NCBI GenBank assembly: GCA_028879995.1
Contig: GCA_028879995.1_4895.1
DNA length: 52,495 bases
Direction: 5' to 3' (one strand)
Origin: a phage
Shown: positions 13,571 to 19,663 of the stretch, one piece after another
How positions within the stretch are numbered: the stretch's first letter is position 1
How the letters are laid out: every line of letters begins with the position of its first letter
Made by a program: the position numbers and the translations under genes
The notes under the pieces: generated by a model
Seen by the model: the letters and a program-made list of their open reading frames with translations, nothing else
Told to the model about the DNA's origin: nothing
Databases searched by the model: none

Positions 13571-13602
13571 GGCCGGAAAGTCCACCCAAGAGGTAAACAA
13601 AA

Positions 13603-14742
13603 ATGCCGTTGAATGTAAACCAGATTGTAAACGTTCAACTGAACAACACTCCAACTGGTATCAGCAAAGGTGACTTCGGTAAGCTGGCTCTTTTAACTCA
13701 GGACCCTGGCACTGCTTTTCCTGACAGCGACAACGGACACTATGTTGAAATCGGCAGCTACTCTGAAGCCGAGTCTTATTGGGGTACTGGTTCAGTTGTA
13801 CTTGGCGCGCTGAAGATTTTCTTTGCACAATCTCCGCGTCCTCGTTCAGTAGTTATCGCCTCATGGAGCAACACCTCTACTCTGGATGCGGCTATTAAAG
13901 CATTCAACGATGTGTATCCTGACTGGTATGTTCTGCGTCCGCTTCCGCCTACTGGCGAGCTGTCTGACGATGACATCAGTTTGCTGGCGTCAACTGTTGC
14001 TGCTTACGATAAAAAACGTTGCAGCTACACTACCACTAAAGCAACTCATATTGAAAACAGCGACTCCAACCCGATTAAAGTTCTGGCTGGTAAAGGCTAC
14101 AACAATATGTGGCTTCAGTACGATAAGAACAACCAACACTATGCAGACATTTCTGCTATGGCGCGTGCTCTGTCTGTTAACTTCTCAGGTAACCGCACTA
14201 CGATTACCATGAAGTTCAAACAAGAGCCTGGTATTACACCGAACAACACTTTAACGCTCACTGAAGCTAACAAGTGTAAAGCGCTGGGTATTAACTGGTA
14301 CACCTACTACAGCACCTTTGCTATGCTTGCAGAAGGTACTGTCCTCGGTACGTCCAAGCCGCCGCGCTTCTGGGATGAAGTACATGGTCTCGACTGGTTC
14401 TGTAATGCTGTCCAGACTTACGTCTTCAACTCAATCGCTACGTCACCCACGAAGGTGCCGCAGACTAACAAAGGTCACGAGCGCCTTACCGGTGCTGCAG
14501 CTGTTGCTTGTCAGCAGGCTGTCGACAACGGCTTGGTTGCACCTGGTATCTGGTACGGTGATGAGTTTGGTACACTGTCTTATGGTGACCGACTCGAGAC
14601 AGGTTTCTACATCTACATCCCTGACGTAGATGACCAGCCTCTGGATGAGCGTGAAGCTCGTCAGGCCGTTGTAATGCAAATCGCGATTAAGCTGGCTGGT
14701 GCAATCCACTCCAGTGACATCCTGATTAACTTCACTCGCTAA
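13603..14742 (+). CDS. Putative tail sheath protein (alternatively a large major tail protein)
   Basis: 379 aa first gene after promoter 13542-13570; followed by a 143-aa tube-sized protein, chaperone, tape measure and Mu/P2-like baseplate genes. Confidence 0.4.
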   Translation: MPLNVNQIVNVQLNNTPTGISKGDFGKLALLTQDPGTAFPDSDNGHYVEIGSYSEAESYWGTGSVVLGALKIFFAQSPRPRSVVIASWSNTSTLDAAIKAFNDVYPDWYVLRPLPPTGELSDDDISLLASTVAAYDKKRCSYTTTKATHIENSDSNPIKVLAGKGYNNMWLQYDKNNQHYADISAMARALSVNFSGNRTTITMKFKQEPGITPNNTLTLTEANKCKALGINWYTYYSTFAMLAEGTVLGTSKPPRFWDEVHGLDWFCNAVQTYVFNSIATSPTKVPQTNKGHERLTGAAAVACQQAVDNGLVAPGIWYGDEFGTLSYGDRLETGFYIYIPDVDDQPLDEREARQAVVMQIAIKLAGAIHSSDILINFTR

Positions 14743-14753
14743 GGAGCAGATCA

Positions 14754-15185
14754 ATGATCATCGATTCTTCTGAATGCGTGTTGAGCCTGAATGGTGTTCA
14801 GCTGTCCGACTGGGCAGACGGTGCCGATGTCATTGACGTGCAATGGGTGGACCCAGCTTCCACCTATCTTGCAGGTGCAGATGGCAATGGCATTCAGATT
14901 ATGAACCCGTCCAAAGCCATTAAGCTAACTATCAAGGTTAAGCAAAATGGTCCGGATGCCAAATGGCTTAACGACCAGTACAACCTGCAGCGTAACAACA
15001 TTCGTGGATTTGTCCCGTTTGTGCTGCAAGCCAAAGACCTGCTAAACCAGGATTTGGCATGGGGCAAAAAAGGTTACTTTACCGATGGTTCCCCGTGGAC
15101 TCGTGGTAACGGCCATAACCCGACTACCTTCGCTATTGTGTTCCACCAAGGTGGTATGCAGTTGACTGAAGGCTTTGACCAGTAA
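14754..15185 (+). CDS. Putative tail tube protein
   Basis: 143 aa, between putative sheath and tail assembly chaperone. Confidence 0.4.
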   Translation: MIIDSSECVLSLNGVQLSDWADGADVIDVQWVDPASTYLAGADGNGIQIMNPSKAIKLTIKVKQNGPDAKWLNDQYNLQRNNIRGFVPFVLQAKDLLNQDLAWGKKGYFTDGSPWTRGNGHNPTTFAIVFHQGGMQLTEGFDQ

Positions 15186-15203
15186 CAATAGAGGAAAGCA
15201 CAA

Positions 15204-15632
15204 ATGACTGAGCCCAAATCATTTGACATCGACGACGTAACGTACAACATGACACTCGCAAACGCGCTACAAGCCTGGACAGTCCTGAAAAAAGCAGGTA
15301 AGCTGTTCAAAGGCATTGGTAACGCGGACATTGTGGGTAAAGATGGCAAAGTGGACGGTAAGAAAGCAATGCTGGTCCTGTTGGACGCTGTTCTGGAGAA
15401 CGCAGGTTCTGACGAGATGACAGCTATTGAGGAACTAATCTTCCGCAATACTGTTGTTGTAGTTGATGGCAAACCGCGTAAGCTGTCTGACTGTAAAGAC
15501 CAACACTTCAACGCACATCGTAGCCACATCTTCGGTGTGCTTAAGGAGGGATTGGTATATCAGTTCGCGGATTTTTTCAAAGGGAATGGCCTGTCAGGTC
15601 TAGCGGGTCTAGCCACGCCCTTGACGAAATAA
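15204..15632 (+). CDS. Tail assembly chaperone (short form)
   Basis: 142 aa directly upstream of tape measure; contains slippery heptamer T_TTT_TTC at 15572-15578. Confidence 0.55.
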   Translation: MTEPKSFDIDDVTYNMTLANALQAWTVLKKAGKLFKGIGNADIVGKDGKVDGKKAMLVLLDAVLENAGSDEMTAIEELIFRNTVVVVDGKPRKLSDCKDQHFNAHRSHIFGVLKEGLVYQFADFFKGNGLSGLAGLATPLTK

Positions 15633-15814
15633 AACGCAAGCAACAGTCAGGGACGCAAGAAACTGACTGGTTCGTTTGGCTTCCTATTCTCAAGGGTCAT
15701 GTGACCCTTGCAGAATTAAAGTCGTCTTACAGCTTGTGTGATTTGTGTGACCTGCATATTGCTATTCTGGACTATGCTGAGTTAGAGGAAATCCATGGCG
15801 ACCATAATCGATAG
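15204..15814 (+). CDS. Tail assembly chaperone, predicted -1 frameshift fusion form
   Basis: After T_TTT_TTC (15572-15578) the -1 frame stays open for 80 codons to TAG 15812-15814, overlapping the tape measure start. Confidence 0.45.
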
Positions 15815-17477
15815 CTTTCTGGTAACGCTTGAGAGTAGAGCTGATAGTTCTGGCTTTGACCTCTTCGACCAGCTGTCCCGCCGTTTTGTGATTACCCTCG
15901 GCGATGTAATCAATCTTGCTGAGCGTGCCGCTGGTGCGCTCGGCAGGATGTTTGCGCCTGCGTTAGAGGCTGACGTACTCGCCGCCAAGATTAAAGGCTT
16001 CGGCTACGACGTCGAATCGACGTGGAAAACGCTGATGGATATGTCTTTACAAATGGGCACACCATTTCAAGAGGCACTCGACGGCTTTACTAAACTTAAA
16101 TCGTATGGCGTTGACCCGTTAAACGGTTCGCTACAAATGCTCAAAACAATCACTGCTGCAACAGGCGGTGATTTGGCACGTACCATTGTTGCGTATGGCC
16201 AGGCGTCTGCTATGGGTTCATTGCAGGGCCAGGAAAAGAACCAGTTCATTAACGCCGGTGTTGACATCTGGGGCGCATTGTCCCGCTACACTGGTAAGAA
16301 GCTTGGCGAGCTTCAGGATATGATGCGGCAGAAGCAAATCACTGCCGACATACTGACTAGCGCGCTCAAACAAGAAGCCGAACGTTTAAAACCAATTGCC
16401 CACGAAGTGTCACAGACACTCAAAGCGCAGTTAACTAACCTGGGCACAATTTGGTATGCTGCTCGTTCTAAGATTGCCCAGACCAGAATATGGGATGAGA
16501 TAACTAAAGGCGCGATAGGTATGGTTAAGTCACTCACAGCAGTGCTTAACGATACCACACTTACTGCGGCGTTTAAAAAGTTCGACGAAATTGTATTCAA
16601 TACAATTGAAAACGTAAAACGACTTATCTACGTTATCGGGGATAACTTCCCGTTAATGGTTGCAATAACATCATACGCACTGCTGTCACTTATTCCCGTG
16701 CTGGCGGCACTTATTCCCTGGCTAGCTAAGGTCGGCAACGCCTTTGTGGGTTTAGCTACCAAAATGCTTATGAATCCGCTCACGTGGTTTGCACTGGCTA
16801 TCGGCACAGTTGTTGCTGTACTCACTGACCTCGACGACGCTCTGGCAGGACGTGAGACAGTTGTTAAGTGGTCAAAAGATGTTGTAGCCGCATGGGGAAT
16901 TGTCAAGCAGTATATCGTAGTTATTGCAGACTTTATTCTGTCAATATTTGACGGTCGCTTATGGAACAAACTCGGTAACTGGTGGCAAGGTTTCCTTGTT
17001 GAAGTTAAGCAAGGCATAGAGCAAATAAAGCTGTGGTTGTCTGAAGCGCTTTACCAGCTGCCTGGTGGTAAGTTCCTGATGGCGTTGTTTGGTAAGCTCG
17101 ATTCTACACTGGGCTTTGCTGGCAACAAACTTGTGGCAGGCGCTGAAGCTACTGCTAATGCTGTATCACCTACAACTGAACGGGGCGGAAGCTTCTGGAG
17201 TAGGGCACTCAACTGGTCTATGCGTAACTTCAACCCTATTACAGGGGAGATGACAGCTGGGGGTCAGGCTATGCAGTCGGCGATAAATACTGCTAAGCAA
17301 AACCAGCAGCAGAACGCGACTGTTATCCACCAGGATAATAGCGTTAAAGTTGACGCTACTATTACCGGTGTACAGAACCCACAAGAAGTAGGCCGTGAGG
17401 TCAATGACCAGGTCAAACAGGCGCAGAAAGAGAATGCTACTGTAATGGCCAACAACAAAACGGCGGTAACACAATGA
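15795..17477 (+). CDS. Tail tape measure protein
   Basis: 560 aa, helical with hydrophobic segments, downstream of chaperone/frameshift pair. Confidence 0.65.
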   Translation: MATIIDSFLVTLESRADSSGFDLFDQLSRRFVITLGDVINLAERAAGALGRMFAPALEADVLAAKIKGFGYDVESTWKTLMDMSLQMGTPFQEALDGFTKLKSYGVDPLNGSLQMLKTITAATGGDLARTIVAYGQASAMGSLQGQEKNQFINAGVDIWGALSRYTGKKLGELQDMMRQKQITADILTSALKQEAERLKPIAHEVSQTLKAQLTNLGTIWYAARSKIAQTRIWDEITKGAIGMVKSLTAVLNDTTLTAAFKKFDEIVFNTIENVKRLIYVIGDNFPLMVAITSYALLSLIPVLAALIPWLAKVGNAFVGLATKMLMNPLTWFALAIGTVVAVLTDLDDALAGRETVVKWSKDVVAAWGIVKQYIVVIADFILSIFDGRLWNKLGNWWQGFLVEVKQGIEQIKLWLSEALYQLPGGKFLMALFGKLDSTLGFAGNKLVAGAEATANAVSPTTERGGSFWSRALNWSMRNFNPITGEMTAGGQAMQSAINTAKQNQQQNATVIHQDNSVKVDATITGVQNPQEVGREVNDQVKQAQKENATVMANNKTAVTQ

Positions 17478-18370
17478 GTGACATCTTTGCTGGAATTACT
17501 GATGCTGCCAACGACTTGTACCAAGATGCCCGTGACAGACTCATGGGCGACGGTACAACCACCTTACGCTTCCGCAACTGCGGAGGCATTAAGATGGATG
17601 CTGTCACTAACGAAGAACATCAGTCTGACCTTGACATCGCTGACAACGAACTTGAGTCCGGGGCTAAGGCTTCGGACCATGCTGCAGTACAACCAAAAGT
17701 TATTACTGTAACTGGTGTGGTAGTTGGCTATATTGACGAGTCGATTCAAGAGTCAACAGTTAACGACGTAACCGGCTTACGGTCTATGGATTTCTTGGAT
17801 GATATTCAGCTTCCACAGGTAGTGTCTACTGTCCTCGAAGGAACAAGGGACTTTGCTGTTAACAAGCTAGTCTCATTCATAGACTGGGGCGGTTTAGACG
17901 CCACCATTTCACGCTCTTTAGTTCCATGGCTTCCTGACTTTAGTATAGCTGAACAACTTAAGTCTTCGGACAACATGAGGATTGAACAGGTATACCGTAC
18001 ACTGCTGGATTTACAGAAAAACGTTATTTACTGTGACGTTGATACTGGTATCTTTAAGTATACGAATATGCTTTTGAAGTCTGTTCGTGTTGTGCAGGAG
18101 AAAGATGGTTCAGCTACGTTTACCCTTACGTTCCGTGAAGTCATTGAAGTACCGATTGTAGTTACAAACGCTGTAGCCGCTAAGTCGACAGGTCGCCCTG
18201 CTAATAACGGCACTAAGAAAAGCGGACGTGCTCAAGGTCAGGGTGATGCCACCAGTAAGAAGGACATAAACACAACTACACCGATTAGCGAGAAACGTGT
18301 AAACGATAACCGCGGTTTTGGTGTAACACTCGGTGACATGTTTGGCTTTAACTTACGAGGCATATTCTGA
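17474..18370 (+). CDS. Tail/baseplate assembly protein
   Basis: ATGA overlap with tape measure stop; 298 aa; position. Confidence 0.35.
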   Translation: MSDIFAGITDAANDLYQDARDRLMGDGTTTLRFRNCGGIKMDAVTNEEHQSDLDIADNELESGAKASDHAAVQPKVITVTGVVVGYIDESIQESTVNDVTGLRSMDFLDDIQLPQVVSTVLEGTRDFAVNKLVSFIDWGGLDATISRSLVPWLPDFSIAEQLKSSDNMRIEQVYRTLLDLQKNVIYCDVDTGIFKYTNMLLKSVRVVQEKDGSATFTLTFREVIEVPIVVTNAVAAKSTGRPANNGTKKSGRAQGQGDATSKKDINTTTPISEKRVNDNRGFGVTLGDMFGFNLRGIF

Positions 18371-18762
18371 TGATATTTACCACAACTGCTTTCCTTGACA
18401 TTATAGGTAATGATGGTTCTGGTATTTACGACTTGGAACCTACCTCCGAAGGTAAGCAATCAATATCTATTTCTATCGCTGGATATACGTATAACATTGA
18501 GTTGTACTATAACACGGTAGGTCAGCTCTGGCAGGCTACAGTGACTGACATATCAAGTAATGCTGTACTTTGTTCCAGTTATGCTTTACAATATGGGCGT
18601 ATTGCTTTTGGTAACTGGGACACGCGTATAGCGTTGCTGGTAAGTGACAAATCCTCCAGCCGCATCGGTCCTATGACTACAGATGACATGGGAGGACGTT
18701 GCAGTGTCTACATCGTCGACAAAACAGCCTACCCGTCAGTTTGGCCGCGCGTTAAAGCTTGA
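18370..18762 (+). CDS. Small tail/baseplate protein
   Basis: 130 aa; TGATG coupling. Confidence 0.3.
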   Translation: MIFTTTAFLDIIGNDGSGIYDLEPTSEGKQSISISIAGYTYNIELYYNTVGQLWQATVTDISSNAVLCSSYALQYGRIAFGNWDTRIALLVSDKSSSRIGPMTTDDMGGRCSVYIVDKTAYPSVWPRVKA

Positions 18763-19663
18763 GGTCAGCAACGGTAAAGATGAAGGCATAATCATCTCAA
18801 ATCTTCGTGTTACCTTTGACATTCAAAAGGGTAACACGAAGCATCCAAATAAAGCGACAATCACAGTGTTCAACTTGACTGAATCCAACCGTTATAAGTT
18901 GGCGTCAGGCACCTGGGATTACGTCCGTCTCTCTGTGGGTTACGGTCTTGACAACATAGTTTATCGCTTGATATTCGAAGGCGATATTACTCGCGCTAAT
19001 GACCAACGAAACGGCCTTGATATTCAGACTGTTCTCGAATGTGGCGATGCCCGTAAGTCTTACAACGATGGCTTTGTTAATACGACGCTGGCCGCTGGCT
19101 CTACGTATGACAGTGTTGTTGACGTTTGCCTGGCTAGTATGCCAAACGTTGAAGAAGGGTACGTCTGCCTTGACAGCAACAAACCAGCTTTCCTGAGAGC
19201 ACGTACTCTGTTCGGACAAACGCACAGCATACTCGACCAGGTTGCTGCTGCCAACAAGGCTACCTGGTCTATACAAGACAATAAACTCAATATCATTCCT
19301 AATGACTCTGTTACTGACTACGACGTTGTTGTGCTGTCAGAATCATCTGGTATGATTGGTGCTCCTCGCGGCACAGACAAAGGTCTTGAGGTTACTTGCA
19401 ACCTGAATCCTACTCTGGCCATTGGTGGTCTCGTACAAGTAAATTCTATGTTTACACAGTACAACGGACAGTATAAAATCGACACTATAAGATTTCGGGG
19501 TGACAATAAACCGAAAGGACCGTGGCGTGCTGACTTGACGGTTCTCGGTGGACAGTTCGCGAAGAAAGTTCGTCGACTCAAGAAGCCACGCAAACTGTCG
19601 AAGATTGAGTATGACTATGTTACTGAACCCGGTGTTGACCATACAGTAGGCGGAGGTAGCTGA
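18704..19663 (+). CDS. Baseplate hub-like tail protein
   Basis: GTG 18704 has RBS GGGAGGA 7 nt upstream; tool ATG 18683 lacks an RBS; about 320 aa. Confidence 0.4.
   Translation: MSTSSTKQPTRQFGRALKLEVSNGKDEGIIISNLRVTFDIQKGNTKHPNKATITVFNLTESNRYKLASGTWDYVRLSVGYGLDNIVYRLIFEGDITRANDQRNGLDIQTVLECGDARKSYNDGFVNTTLAAGSTYDSVVDVCLASMPNVEEGYVCLDSNKPAFLRARTLFGQTHSILDQVAAANKATWSIQDNKLNIIPNDSVTDYDVVVLSESSGMIGAPRGTDKGLEVTCNLNPTLAIGGLVQVNSMFTQYNGQYKIDTIRFRGDNKPKGPWRADLTVLGGQFAKKVRRLKKPRKLSKIEYDYVTEPGVDHTVGGGS

What the first reader, a model, noticed from the sequence alone, without database searches (positions are those of the whole stretch)
15204..15814. Programmed -1 frameshift site in the tail assembly chaperone gene
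The chaperone ORF contains the heptamer T_TTT_TTC in the correct register (zero-frame codons GAT TTT TTC at 15570-15578). The -1 frame is then open for 80 codons to TAG 15812-15814, overlapping the tape measure start. This matches the conserved chaperone frameshift of tailed phages and supports the tail-gene assignments.
Basis: partly seen in the sequence, partly recalled or inferred. Interest (0 to 1): 0.4.

Follow-up and report, generated by a model that had tools for sequence, protein, structure and literature searches.

The report
Tail chaperone -1 frameshift site, unannotated
The phage's tail assembly chaperone gene really does carry a conserved slippery T_TTT_TTC site that lets some ribosomes slip back one base and make a longer fusion protein; this is the ordinary, well-known trick of tailed phages, simply missing from this phage's database annotation.

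Summary
The window is Salmonella phage BP63 (Rosemountvirus). ORF 15204-15632 (142 aa) is a tail assembly chaperone (Pfam Phage_TAC_9, E 2e-31; the predicted fold matches solved chaperones). It lies between the tail tube gene and the tape measure gene. T_TTT_TTC sits at 15572-15578 in the GAT TTT TTC register. The -1 frame then runs 78 new codons to TAG 15812-15814, 20 nt into the tape measure gene, predicting a 203-aa fusion.

Comparative evidence is strong:
- The heptamer (TTTTTTC/T/G) keeps the same register and alignment position in relatives down to about 34% identity, including GC-rich hosts.
- The extension is always 70-79 codons, ends 4-20 nt inside the tape measure gene, and carries a conserved DWFxWxP...TLxEL..YxLxDL motif.
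- dN/dS of the extension is 0.10-0.21.
- Most lineages have no start codon upstream of the motif, and one has none in the whole -1 ORF.
- In three lineages a stop closes the -1 frame just 5' of the heptamer.

The homologue in phage Aaphi23 is already annotated as a joined frameshift CDS, and P2 E/E+E' has the same geometry. BP63's RefSeq record instead calls gp34 and a spurious 37-aa gp35.

Verdict: a real, unannotated member of a well-known class. No stimulatory RNA structure could be shown, and frameshifting itself is untested.

The parts
15204..15632 (+). Gene G: tail assembly chaperone, zero-frame product of 142 aa (RefSeq BP63 gp34, annotated 'hypothetical protein')
15572..15578 (+). Slippery heptamer T_TTT_TTC (U_UUU_UUC in the mRNA). 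It is in register with the zero-frame codons GAT TTT TTC and is the proposed site of the tandem -1 slip of two tRNA-Phe.
   Evidence: Sequence. Same register and same alignment position in all relatives examined, as TTTTTTC, TTTTTTT or TTTTTTG. The NNT-TTT synonymous choice is kept in 14/14 lineages, even where TTT is only 10-30% of Phe codons. U_UU.U_UU.C is a proven frameshift-prone motif in E. coli (PMC4066793).
15578..15814 (+). T extension: -1 frame coding segment of 78 codons plus TAG 15812-15814. The first 18 codons (15578-15632) are dual-coding with the 3' end of G. It is translated only as the C-terminal part of the 203-aa GT fusion.
   Evidence: Translation. Conserved length of 70-79 codons and the motif DWFxWxP-x6-[TS]LxEL-x3-Y[ST]LxDL in 15 lineages. 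dN/dS 0.10-0.21 against about 1-5 in the other two frames. No start codon upstream of the conserved motif in most lineages, and none at all in L024.
15701..15814 (+). RefSeq 'gp35' (GTG start, 37 aa, hypothetical protein). This is a mis-call; it is the C-terminal half of the T extension.
   Evidence: Annotation. The GTG is absent in S144/Loughboroughvirus, which has ATC/ATT there, and the conserved DWF motif lies upstream of it.
15795..17477 (+). Tape measure protein gene (560 aa). Its start is overlapped by the last 20 nt of the T extension.
   Evidence: Pfam TMP_3 E 1e-19. phrog_29251, full length. The T stop falls 4-20 nt inside the tape measure gene in all relatives.
14754..15185 (+). Tail tube gene immediately upstream (synteny anchor)
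   Evidence: Weak Pfam KPP10_Orf10 hit; phrog_280. Homologues in relatives carry PF11681 Phage_Tube_PhiTE.
13603..14742 (+). Tail sheath gene (synteny anchor)
   Evidence: Pfam DUF3383/E217_gp31_N E 4.5e-72; phrog_205 tail sheath E 3e-93.
15582..15622 (+). Candidate downstream hairpins, 4-9 nt 3' of the heptamer: GGG/CCC plus UGGC/GCCA, or alternatively GGCCUGU/GCGGGUC. Their role as a stimulator is unproven.
   Evidence: Both are compatible with all 9 Rosemount-like sequences, but there is no covariation because the stems are invariant and dual-coding. The fold energy is not better than shuffles (z -0.6 to -1.1). No Rfam match.

Best explanation
Gene 15204-15632 of Salmonella phage BP63 encodes the tail assembly chaperone (the 'G' protein, 142 aa).

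Proposed mechanism:
- Most ribosomes terminate at TAA 15630-15632.
- A minority, with tRNA-Phe on UUU (P site) and UUC (A site) of U_UUU_UUC at 15572-15578, slip back one nucleotide and re-pair with UUU UUU.
- They then read the -1 frame from 15578 to TAG 15812-15814, making a 203-aa 'GT' fusion of 125 aa of G plus a 78-aa T domain.

By analogy with lambda G/GT and P2 E/E+E', G and the G part of GT coat the tape measure protein (gene 15795-17477). The rarer T domain recruits the tube protein, so that tube and sheath polymerise to the length set by the tape measure. The fixed shift frequency would set the G:GT ratio.

Shown here: the sequence anatomy, chaperone identity, synteny, conservation of the site and of the -1 frame protein, and lack of an independent start.

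Inferred: that the shift occurs, its efficiency, the binding partners, and whether any RNA stimulator is used.
For: 1. Anatomy: in-register T_TTT_TTC, 17 codons before the G stop. The -1 frame is open for 78 codons and ends 20 nt inside the tape measure gene.
3. Synteny: sheath, tube, G, T, tape measure, Dit-like.
4. Site conservation: TTTTTT[C/T/G] at the same alignment column and register in Rosemountvirus, Loughboroughvirus, Erwinia, Pasteurella, Aggregatibacter, Pseudomonas aeruginosa, Mycoavidus and Proteus relatives, down to about 34% aa identity.
5. The nucleotides rather than the amino acids are conserved: F-L in Proteus/Erwinia LS-2018a against F-F elsewhere. NNT-TTT is kept in 14/14 lineages, including 62-67% GC loci where TTT is 10-30% of Phe codons.
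6. The T frame is a real protein: a conserved motif with 9 invariant residues, T-only dN/dS 0.10-0.21 against 0.8-5 in control frames, and depressed synonymous change in the dual-coding overlap.
7. Independent initiation is not the conserved route: most lineages have no ATG/GTG/TTG upstream of the DW motif, and L024 has none in the whole -1 ORF.
8. The shift is pinned to the heptamer: in L009, L027 and L029 a stop closes the -1 frame immediately 5' of it.
9. All 70 phage records hit by the fusion protein match in two pieces, one per frame.
10. Precedents: the Aaphi23 homologue is annotated as joined CDS ORF54-54', ending exactly at the predicted -1 stop. P2 E/E+E' has GGT TTT TTG, with the annotated shift site 7 codons before the E stop and E' overlapping the tape measure gene by 8 nt.
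11. Motif competence (PMC4066793): U_UU.U_UU.C frameshifts above 0.1% in E. coli without a stimulator, and H_HH.U_UU.Y is among the most efficient classes.
12. Function of G/GT in lambda and P2: review PMC5009743.
Against: - There is no experimental evidence for a GT product in BP63 or any member of this protein family. None was found in the literature searched.
- No significant downstream stimulatory structure in BP63 (z -0.6 to -1.1), no covariation and no Rfam hit.
- The SD-like AAGGAGG at 15543-15549 is 22 nt upstream, outside the 6-17 nt window that PMC4066793 searched for SD-like stimulators, and it is not conserved.
- One metagenomic lineage (L012/L013/L014) has GAT TTT ATC, which breaks the heptamer while keeping the T frame. 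So the full heptamer is not strictly required, or that lineage shifts on the U_UUU tetramer.
- The T domain has no Pfam family, and its similarity to P2 E' is not significant.
Confidence: 0.84

Rival explanations
1. The -1 ORF is a separate small gene, as RefSeq annotates it (gp35, GTG 15701 to TAG 15814, 37 aa). It would be translated from its own start, with no recoding.
For: RefSeq and several GenBank records call such a small ORF. A weak AAGGG lies 4 nt upstream of GTG 15701.
Against: - The GTG is not conserved: Loughboroughvirus has Ile there.
- Conservation and purifying selection extend well upstream of it, through the invariant D-W...P motif.
- Most lineages have no start codon upstream of that motif, and L024 has none in the entire -1 ORF.
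- The called small ORFs differ in start and length between records (37-67 aa).
Confidence: 0.03
2. Transcriptional slippage: RNA polymerase adds one extra U on the T6 run, so a fraction of mRNAs encode GT in a single frame and ribosomes do not shift.
For: The site is a homopolymer (T6 in BP63, T7 in Aaphi23/Aggregatibacter). UUUUUUU runs are known to risk transcriptional slippage (PMC4066793; PMC5009743).
Against: - From general knowledge, six T is shorter than the runs of about 8-9 or more that usually give efficient slippage in bacteria.
- The register of the run relative to the reading frame is invariant, which transcriptional slippage does not require.
- The L012-L014 lineage keeps T with only T4.
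- The homologous geometry in P2 (T6G) is annotated as a translational frameshift.
Confidence: 0.04
3. The shift is real but is a single-tRNA slip on the tetramer U_UUU (GAU_UUU, 15572-15575) or U_UUC, rather than a tandem two-tRNA slip on the full heptamer.
For: Relatives L012/L013/L014 have GAT TTT ATC, retaining only U_UUU, and still conserve the T frame with the same junction spacing. U_UU.Y tetramers are the second-best tetramer class in E. coli (PMC4066793).
Against: - Tetramers needed a strong stimulator in E. coli and gave about 10-fold less shifting than the best heptamer tested with the same stimulator. No strong stimulator is evident in BP63.
- The full T6 is kept in every other lineage despite opposing codon bias, which argues that the second half matters.
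Confidence: 0.08
4. Chance or sequencing artefact: either G and T are one ORF split by a homopolymer sequencing error, or the -1 ORF is fortuitous.
For: Homopolymer runs are error-prone in some sequencing chemistries.
Against: - The same two-frame arrangement is seen in 70 independent phage records and many prophages and metagenomes.
- The zero-frame tail after the heptamer (GNGLSGxAGLA...) is itself conserved and ends in a conserved-position stop.
- The T frame shows purifying selection.
- The chance estimate is about 0.003 per ORF.
Confidence: 0.01

Closest known systems
Phage Aaphi23 (Aggregatibacter/Haemophilus) ORF54 / ORF54-54' (AJ560763)
   Same: Homologous protein family (Phage_TAC_9; about 43% aa identity to BP63 GT by tblastn). 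Same position between tube and tape measure. Slippery T_TTT_TTT at the same alignment column. A 73-codon -1 extension with the same DWFxFxP...TLHEL..YSLxDL motif. It is already annotated as a joined (frameshift) CDS whose end coincides with the predicted -1 stop.
   Different: Temperate phage of Pasteurellaceae. The heptamer ends in T rather than C. The -1 frame is closed by TGA right before the heptamer. As far as I could find, the prediction there is also not experimentally verified.
Phage P2 E / E+E' (Peduovirus), -1 frameshift at T_TTT_TTG
   Same: Contractile-tailed phage. The chaperone gene lies between the tube (FII) and tape measure (T) genes. The register GGT TTT TTG is identical to the GGT TTT TTC of BP63's relatives. 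[quoted passage not shown] The review states that P2-type frameshifting is 2-3 fold more efficient than lambda's (PMC5009743). E' and BP63 T share the pattern F-x-W-x-P-x6-[ST]-L-x-E-L.
   Different: No detectable sequence homology of the G parts (BLASTP E 0.38). P2 E is Pfam Phage_TAC_7 and E' is Phage_P2_GpE, whereas BP63 G is Phage_TAC_9 and its T has no Pfam family. The E'/T profile comparison is not significant (E 0.066). P2 E is 91 aa and E+E' 142 aa, against 142 and 203 aa here.
Phage lambda G / GT, -1 frameshift at G_GGA_AAG (the founding case; Levin 1993; Xu, Hendrix and Duda 2004, 2013, 2014)
   Same: Two overlapping ORFs just upstream of the tape measure gene. A -1 shift near the end of the first gives a fusion at a fixed low ratio (about 30:1). 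Neither protein is needed in the virion. G binds the tape measure and T binds the major tail (tube) protein (PMC5009743).

Membership tests
Conserved tail assembly chaperone G/GT programmed -1 frameshift of long-tailed dsDNA phages (Xu, Hendrix and Duda 2004 class) | Two overlapping ORFs located between the major tail/tube gene and the tape measure gene | tested here: met
   Tube 14754-15185, G 15204-15632, T (-1) to 15814, tape measure 15795-17477. Same order in all relatives.
Conserved tail assembly chaperone G/GT programmed -1 frameshift of long-tailed dsDNA phages (Xu, Hendrix and Duda 2004 class) | The downstream ORF is in the -1 frame relative to the upstream one and lacks its own conserved start | tested here: met
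   T is in the -1 frame. No start codon upstream of the conserved motif in most lineages, and none at all in L024.
Conserved tail assembly chaperone G/GT programmed -1 frameshift of long-tailed dsDNA phages (Xu, Hendrix and Duda 2004 class) | [quoted passage not shown] | tested here: met
   T_TTT_TTC at 15572-15578, 17 codons before the G stop. Conserved in register across the family. Exception: L012-L014 retain only the U_UUU tetramer.
Conserved tail assembly chaperone G/GT programmed -1 frameshift of long-tailed dsDNA phages (Xu, Hendrix and Duda 2004 class) | Both frames encode conserved protein (G tail and T domain) | tested here: met
   T-only dN/dS 0.10-0.21 against control frames of about 1 or more, with suppressed synonymous change in the overlap. 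T motif conserved. G C-terminal tail conserved.
Conserved tail assembly chaperone G/GT programmed -1 frameshift of long-tailed dsDNA phages (Xu, Hendrix and Duda 2004 class) | A frameshift fusion protein is actually made, at a low fixed ratio to G | not testable with these tools
   Requires western blot, mass spectrometry or a reporter assay. No published data were found for Rosemountvirus/Loughboroughvirus.
Conserved tail assembly chaperone G/GT programmed -1 frameshift of long-tailed dsDNA phages (Xu, Hendrix and Duda 2004 class) | G and GT are required for tail assembly and bind the tape measure (G) and tube (T) proteins | not testable with these tools
   Inferred from lambda (PMC5009743). 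No interaction data exist for this family.
Pfam PF10876 Phage_TAC_9 (tail assembly chaperone family) | Sequence match above the Pfam gathering threshold | tested here: met
   109.2 bits against a cut-off of 25, E 2.2e-31, residues 8-126.
Solved tail assembly chaperone fold (HK97 2ob9, YqbN 3klu, 3fgx) | Structural similarity of the G domain to solved chaperones | tested here: met
   [not shown]
P2 E' domain family (Pfam PF06528 Phage_P2_GpE) | Sequence or profile match of the BP63 T domain to P2 E' | tested here: inconclusive
   No Pfam hit for five T domains even at E up to 10. hhalign of the T profile against P2 E' gives E 0.066 over 17 columns and low probability, although the pattern F-x-W-x-P-x6-[ST]LxEL is shared.
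Frameshift stimulatory RNA elements (downstream hairpin/pseudoknot or upstream SD-like sequence) | A conserved structure 5-9 nt downstream, or an SD-like sequence 6-17 nt upstream, of the slippery site | tested here: inconclusive
   Candidate hairpins are compatible with all close relatives but invariant, so there is no covariation. Folding energy is not different from shuffles in BP63. Some distant relatives do have strong hairpins (L023 z -4.3, L028 z -2.4). AAGGAGG lies 22 nt upstream and is not conserved. No Rfam family matches.

The most novel reading that the evidence does not exclude
The family may not depend on the textbook tandem slip. A natural lineage (metagenome contigs L012/L013/L014) carries GAT TTT ATC, breaking the heptamer, yet conserves the T domain. 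This leaves open that shifting in this chaperone family is driven by a single tRNA-Phe slip on U_UUU. Such a slip might be assisted by the invariant GGGAAUGGCCUGU...GCGGGUCU hairpin region 4-9 nt downstream, which would then be an undescribed stimulator hidden in dual-coding sequence. A smaller point: the T domain (F-x-W-x-P-x6-[ST]LxEL) may be a universal myovirus E'/T module that current databases file as dozens of tiny 'unknown function' ORFs.
Probability: 0.12. Interest if true: 0.35.

Novelty: new member of a known kind. Interest (0 to 1): 0.2.

Why it matters
Mostly for annotation.
- BP63's reference record, and essentially all of the roughly 60 Rosemountvirus/Loughboroughvirus genomes, many of them phage-therapy or biocontrol candidates, list the chaperone as 'hypothetical'. 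They either omit the T segment or call a spurious 37-45 aa ORF.
- The correct description is one gene with two products (142 and 203 aa).
- It confirms the sheath, tube, chaperone and tape measure assignments of the tail module.
- It adds a further well-conserved example (Phage_TAC_9 family, U_UUU_UUY) to the catalogue of G/GT frameshifts, with a natural heptamer-broken variant that could be useful for recoding studies.
- It does not change what is understood about phage tail assembly.

Tried and rejected
- Downstream RNA stimulator. Single-sequence folds of 47-102 nt were no better than shuffles. RNAalifold and explicit pair counting on 9 relatives gave zero informative covariation. The Rfam scan found nothing.
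- Upstream SD-like stimulator. AAGGAGG at 15543-15549 is 22 nt away and not conserved. Rejected as a conserved element.
- Independent start for T. Rejected.
- Alternative slippery sites between the heptamer and the G stop. None is in register (read).
The T domain was therefore modelled without homologues and has low confidence (pLDDT below 55), so no fold statement is made for T.
- Pfam scan of T domains. No family.
- Homology of BP63 G to P2 E (BLASTP E 0.38) and of T to P2 E' (hhalign E 0.066). Not demonstrated.
- IMG/VR and GTDB pattern scans returned only 5 loci and 1 locus. The profile protein search plus contig look-ups were more productive.
- Literature searches for a described frameshift in Rosemountvirus, S144 or BP63 found none.

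Full report
**Identity of the window.** The tail region 13600-17500 is 100% identical to Salmonella phage BP63 (NC_031250.1 / KM366099.1, genus Rosemountvirus). It is 97-99% identical to about 45 other Salmonella and Escherichia phages. In the RefSeq record the finding's region is annotated as two separate 'hypothetical proteins'. These are gp34 (window 15204-15632) and gp35 (window 15701-15814, 37 aa, GTG start), followed by the tape measure gp36 (window 15795-17477). No joined CDS is annotated.

**Observation check.**
- The ORF ATG 15204 to TAA 15632 encodes 142 aa.
- Codons at 15570-15578 are GAT TTT TTC, so T_TTT_TTC (15572-15578) is a canonical X_XXY_YYZ heptamer in register, 17 codons before the stop.
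- After a -1 slip, decoding resumes at 15578 (CAA). It runs 78 sense codons to TAG 15812-15814, 20 nt past the tape measure ATG at 15795.
- The predicted products are 142 aa (G) and 203 aa (GT).

**Is it more than chance?**
- In long ORFs of this window, in-register heptamers occur at 0.0015 per codon. That gives about 0.22 expected per 142-codon ORF.
- Only 1.6% of codon positions are followed by a -1 frame open for at least 78 codons (median 6).
- Of 26 in-register heptamers in all 94 ORFs of at least 100 aa, this is the only genuine one with a long extension. The other case lies in a spurious alternative-frame ORF inside the sheath gene.

**What the genes are.**
- The G ORF matches Pfam Phage_TAC_9 (E 2.2e-31) and Phage_TAC_15, and the PHROG tail assembly chaperone family 1613.
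- An AlphaFold2 model built with 48 family members is confident over the G domain (pLDDT 76-97 for residues 1-126).
- Flanking genes are the sheath (13603-14742), tube (14754-15185), tape measure (15795-17477, TMP_3), a Dit-like protein (17474-18370) and baseplate proteins.
- The synteny is therefore the classical tube, chaperone, tape measure order.

**Comparative test of the slippery site.** I collected homologous loci from several sources:
- Annotated phages: S144, PK3 and AEV23 (Loughboroughvirus, about 80% nt identity); Erwinia SOI901, fHy-Eco03, KE25 and vB_SE1_KM (about 66%); Aaphi23; Proteus ZX7; and Erwinia LS-2018a.
- IMG/VR contigs.
- Contigs encoding distant family members found by a profile search. 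These include Aggregatibacter, Pasteurella multocida, Pseudomonas aeruginosa and Mycoavidus prophages, and metagenomes, with 34-60% aa identity.

The results were consistent:
- In every lineage but one, the same alignment column (the ...QF[AG][DG]FF... motif) carries TTTTTTC, TTTTTTT or TTTTTTG in the same register.
- The conservation is at nucleotide level. Proteus ZX7 and Erwinia LS-2018a encode F-L (TTT TTG) rather than F-F.
- The synonymous choices NNT-TTT are kept in 14 of 14 lineages. This includes loci of 62-67% GC, where TTT is only 10-30% of Phe codons. The product of the codon-usage probabilities is about 1e-10, which overstates significance because the lineages are related.

**Comparative test of the -1 frame.**
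- The extension is always 70-79 codons long and ends 4-20 nt inside the tape measure gene.
- Its translation aligns across all lineages. It has invariant D-W, P, L, L, Y, L and H positions in a core DWFxWxP-x6-[TS]LxEL-x3-Y[ST]LxDLxxxH.
- For the part downstream of the G stop, Nei-Gojobori dN/dS between BP63 and relatives is 0.10-0.21. Synonymous sites are near saturation (pS 0.6-0.9). The same nucleotides read in the other two frames give ratios of 0.8-5 and contain 3-5 stops.
- In the 18-codon overlap, synonymous change is depressed. This is expected for dual coding.
- The zero-frame C-terminal tail of G (GNGLSGxAGLA...) is conserved too. G and T are therefore not one ORF broken by a sequencing error.

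**How T is reached.**
- Within the -1 ORF, most lineages have no ATG, GTG or TTG upstream of the conserved DW motif. BP63 is one of them: its first candidate start is GTG 15701, 12 codons after DW.
- The Pasteurella prophage L024 has no start codon in the whole -1 ORF.
- The BP63 GTG is replaced by an Ile codon in Loughboroughvirus.
- In three lineages (L009, L027, L029) a stop codon closes the -1 frame immediately 5' of the heptamer. Entry into the frame must therefore happen between the heptamer and the G stop.
- In BP63 that 60-nt interval contains no other in-register slippery motif.
- tblastn of the reconstructed fusion hits all 70 phage records in two pieces, one per frame.
- There is no terminator-like site between G and the tape measure gene.
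- Together these points exclude the 'separate small gene' reading and leave recoding at the T run as the only consistent route.

**Mechanism.** U_UUU_UUC allows both tRNA-Phe (one isoacceptor, anticodon GAA, by established knowledge) to re-pair perfectly or by wobble after a -1 move. Sharma et al. 2014 (PMC4066793) report the following for E. coli:
- U_UU.U_UU.C shifts above 0.1% even without a stimulator.
- It belongs to the most efficient class, H_HH.U_UU.Y.
- It is under-represented in E. coli genes.
- It is used by IS elements.

I could not demonstrate a stimulator:
- The 47-102 nt downstream fold no better than shuffled controls (z -0.6 to -1.1).
- Two alternative hairpins 4-9 nt downstream are compatible with all nine Rosemount-like sequences. 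Their stems are invariant and lie in dual-coding sequence, so covariation is nil.
- Rfam has no match.
- Some distant relatives do have strong hairpins, for example Mycoavidus with a perfect 13-bp stem (z -4.3).
- The SD-like AAGGAGG at 15543-15549 is 22 nt upstream and is not conserved.

The absence of an obvious stimulator does not argue against the frameshift. A T-run of six is short for transcriptional slippage, and the invariant register is not something that mechanism needs. I keep it as a low-probability rival.

**An exception worth noting.** Three metagenomic contigs from two divergent relatives (L012/L013 and L014) read GAT TTT ATC. The heptamer is broken, but the -1 T frame is fully conserved. 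They retain the tetramer U_UUU, which belongs to the second-best tetramer class in E. coli. Either that lineage shifts on a single tRNA-Phe, or the whole family can.

**Comparison with what is known.** The arrangement is the conserved G/GT frameshift of long-tailed phages.
- Lambda G/GT is made at about 30:1. G binds the tape measure and T binds the tail tube protein. The feature is widely conserved, and P2-type sites are 2-3 fold more efficient (review PMC5009743).
- P2 is the closest well-studied analogue. In its record, E+E' is a joined CDS with the frameshift site flagged at GGT TTT TTG, 7 codons before the E stop. E' overlaps the tape measure gene T by 8 nt.
- P2 E belongs to a different Pfam chaperone family (Phage_TAC_7). 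It shows no BLASTP similarity to BP63 G.
- E' shares the F-x-W-x-P-x6-[ST]LxEL pattern with the BP63 T domain, but the profile comparison is not significant.
- Within BP63's own protein family there is a direct precedent. Phage Aaphi23 annotates ORF54-54' as a joined CDS whose end coincides exactly with the -1 stop predicted from its T_TTT_TTT.
- I found no paper describing the frameshift for Rosemountvirus or Loughboroughvirus. The S144 paper names the chaperone (ORF22) without mentioning a frameshift.
- The records of this clade that I opened carry no joined CDS. The product names listed under the matches in the rest show only separate ORFs.
- The T domain matches only tiny 'unknown function' PHROGs (4364, 3976, 4625) and no Pfam family. 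This suggests the same mis-annotation is widespread.

**Verdict.** This is an ordinary, previously unannotated member of a very well-known recoding class. It is valuable for correcting annotation and for confirming the tail-gene assignments. It is not surprising to a specialist. What remains untested is the existence and abundance of the 203-aa product and whether any RNA element stimulates the shift.

Noticed in passing
window 15701-15814: RefSeq gp35 (37 aa, GTG start, 'hypothetical protein') is a gene-caller artefact. It is the C-terminal half of the -1 frame T extension and starts after the conserved DWFxWxP motif. Equivalent small ORFs of 45-67 aa are called in other phages and prophages, and they probably populate PHROGs 4364, 3976 and 4625 ('unknown function').
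   Followed up: yes
window 15543-15549: A perfect Shine-Dalgarno-like AAGGAGG lies inside the chaperone gene, 22 nt upstream of the slippery heptamer. That is too far for the known SD-type -1 stimulators, and it is not conserved in relatives (AAAGAAGG, CAGAAAGG, AAACAAGG).
   Followed up: partly
L012:1350-1356, L013:923-929, L014:946-952 (metagenome contigs ERR3253512, ERR3253515, SRR16287788): Natural variants of the site read GAT TTT ATC, so the heptamer is broken and only the U_UUU tetramer is left. The -1 T frame is nevertheless fully conserved. This is a natural experiment on whether a tandem slip is needed.
   Followed up: partly
L023:1843-1872 (Mycoavidus prophage); L028:1865-1906: Some distant relatives have strong hairpins starting 1-3 nt after the heptamer: a perfect 13-bp stem in L023 (z -4.3) and a weaker one in L028 (z -2.4). 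BP63 and most others show nothing significant, so stimulators seem lineage-specific.
   Followed up: partly
[not shown]
   Followed up: no
L032:755-800 (P2 E') against window 15671-15718: P2 E' and the BP63 T domain share the pattern F-x-W-x-P-x6-[ST]-L-x-E-L, although hhalign is not significant (E 0.066). The T/E' domains of contractile-tailed phages may be one very divergent family.
   Followed up: partly
database records PP583539.1 and JAEWER010000021.1 (L020): A record named 'Listeria phage 220426122051' is 98.5% identical to BP63 over the tail region. A contig of a 'Bacillota bacterium' MAG is 100% identical in the chaperone gene. These are probably a host mislabel and a binning artefact rather than real Gram-positive hosts.
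   Followed up: no
L005:703-1161 (phage fHy-Eco03 gp34): The GenBank note says the chaperone homologue was detected by LC-MS/MS in purified virions. This differs from lambda, where G and GT are absent from particles. It could be carry-over or a real difference. The raw data could be re-searched for the GT junction peptide.
   Followed up: no
window 18683-18762: The ORF called for the baseplate hub (18683-19663) overlaps the preceding Pam3_gp18-like plug gene (18370-18762) by 80 nt. RefSeq annotates a start 22 nt further downstream, which still leaves about 58 nt of overlap, so the true start may be later still.
   Followed up: no
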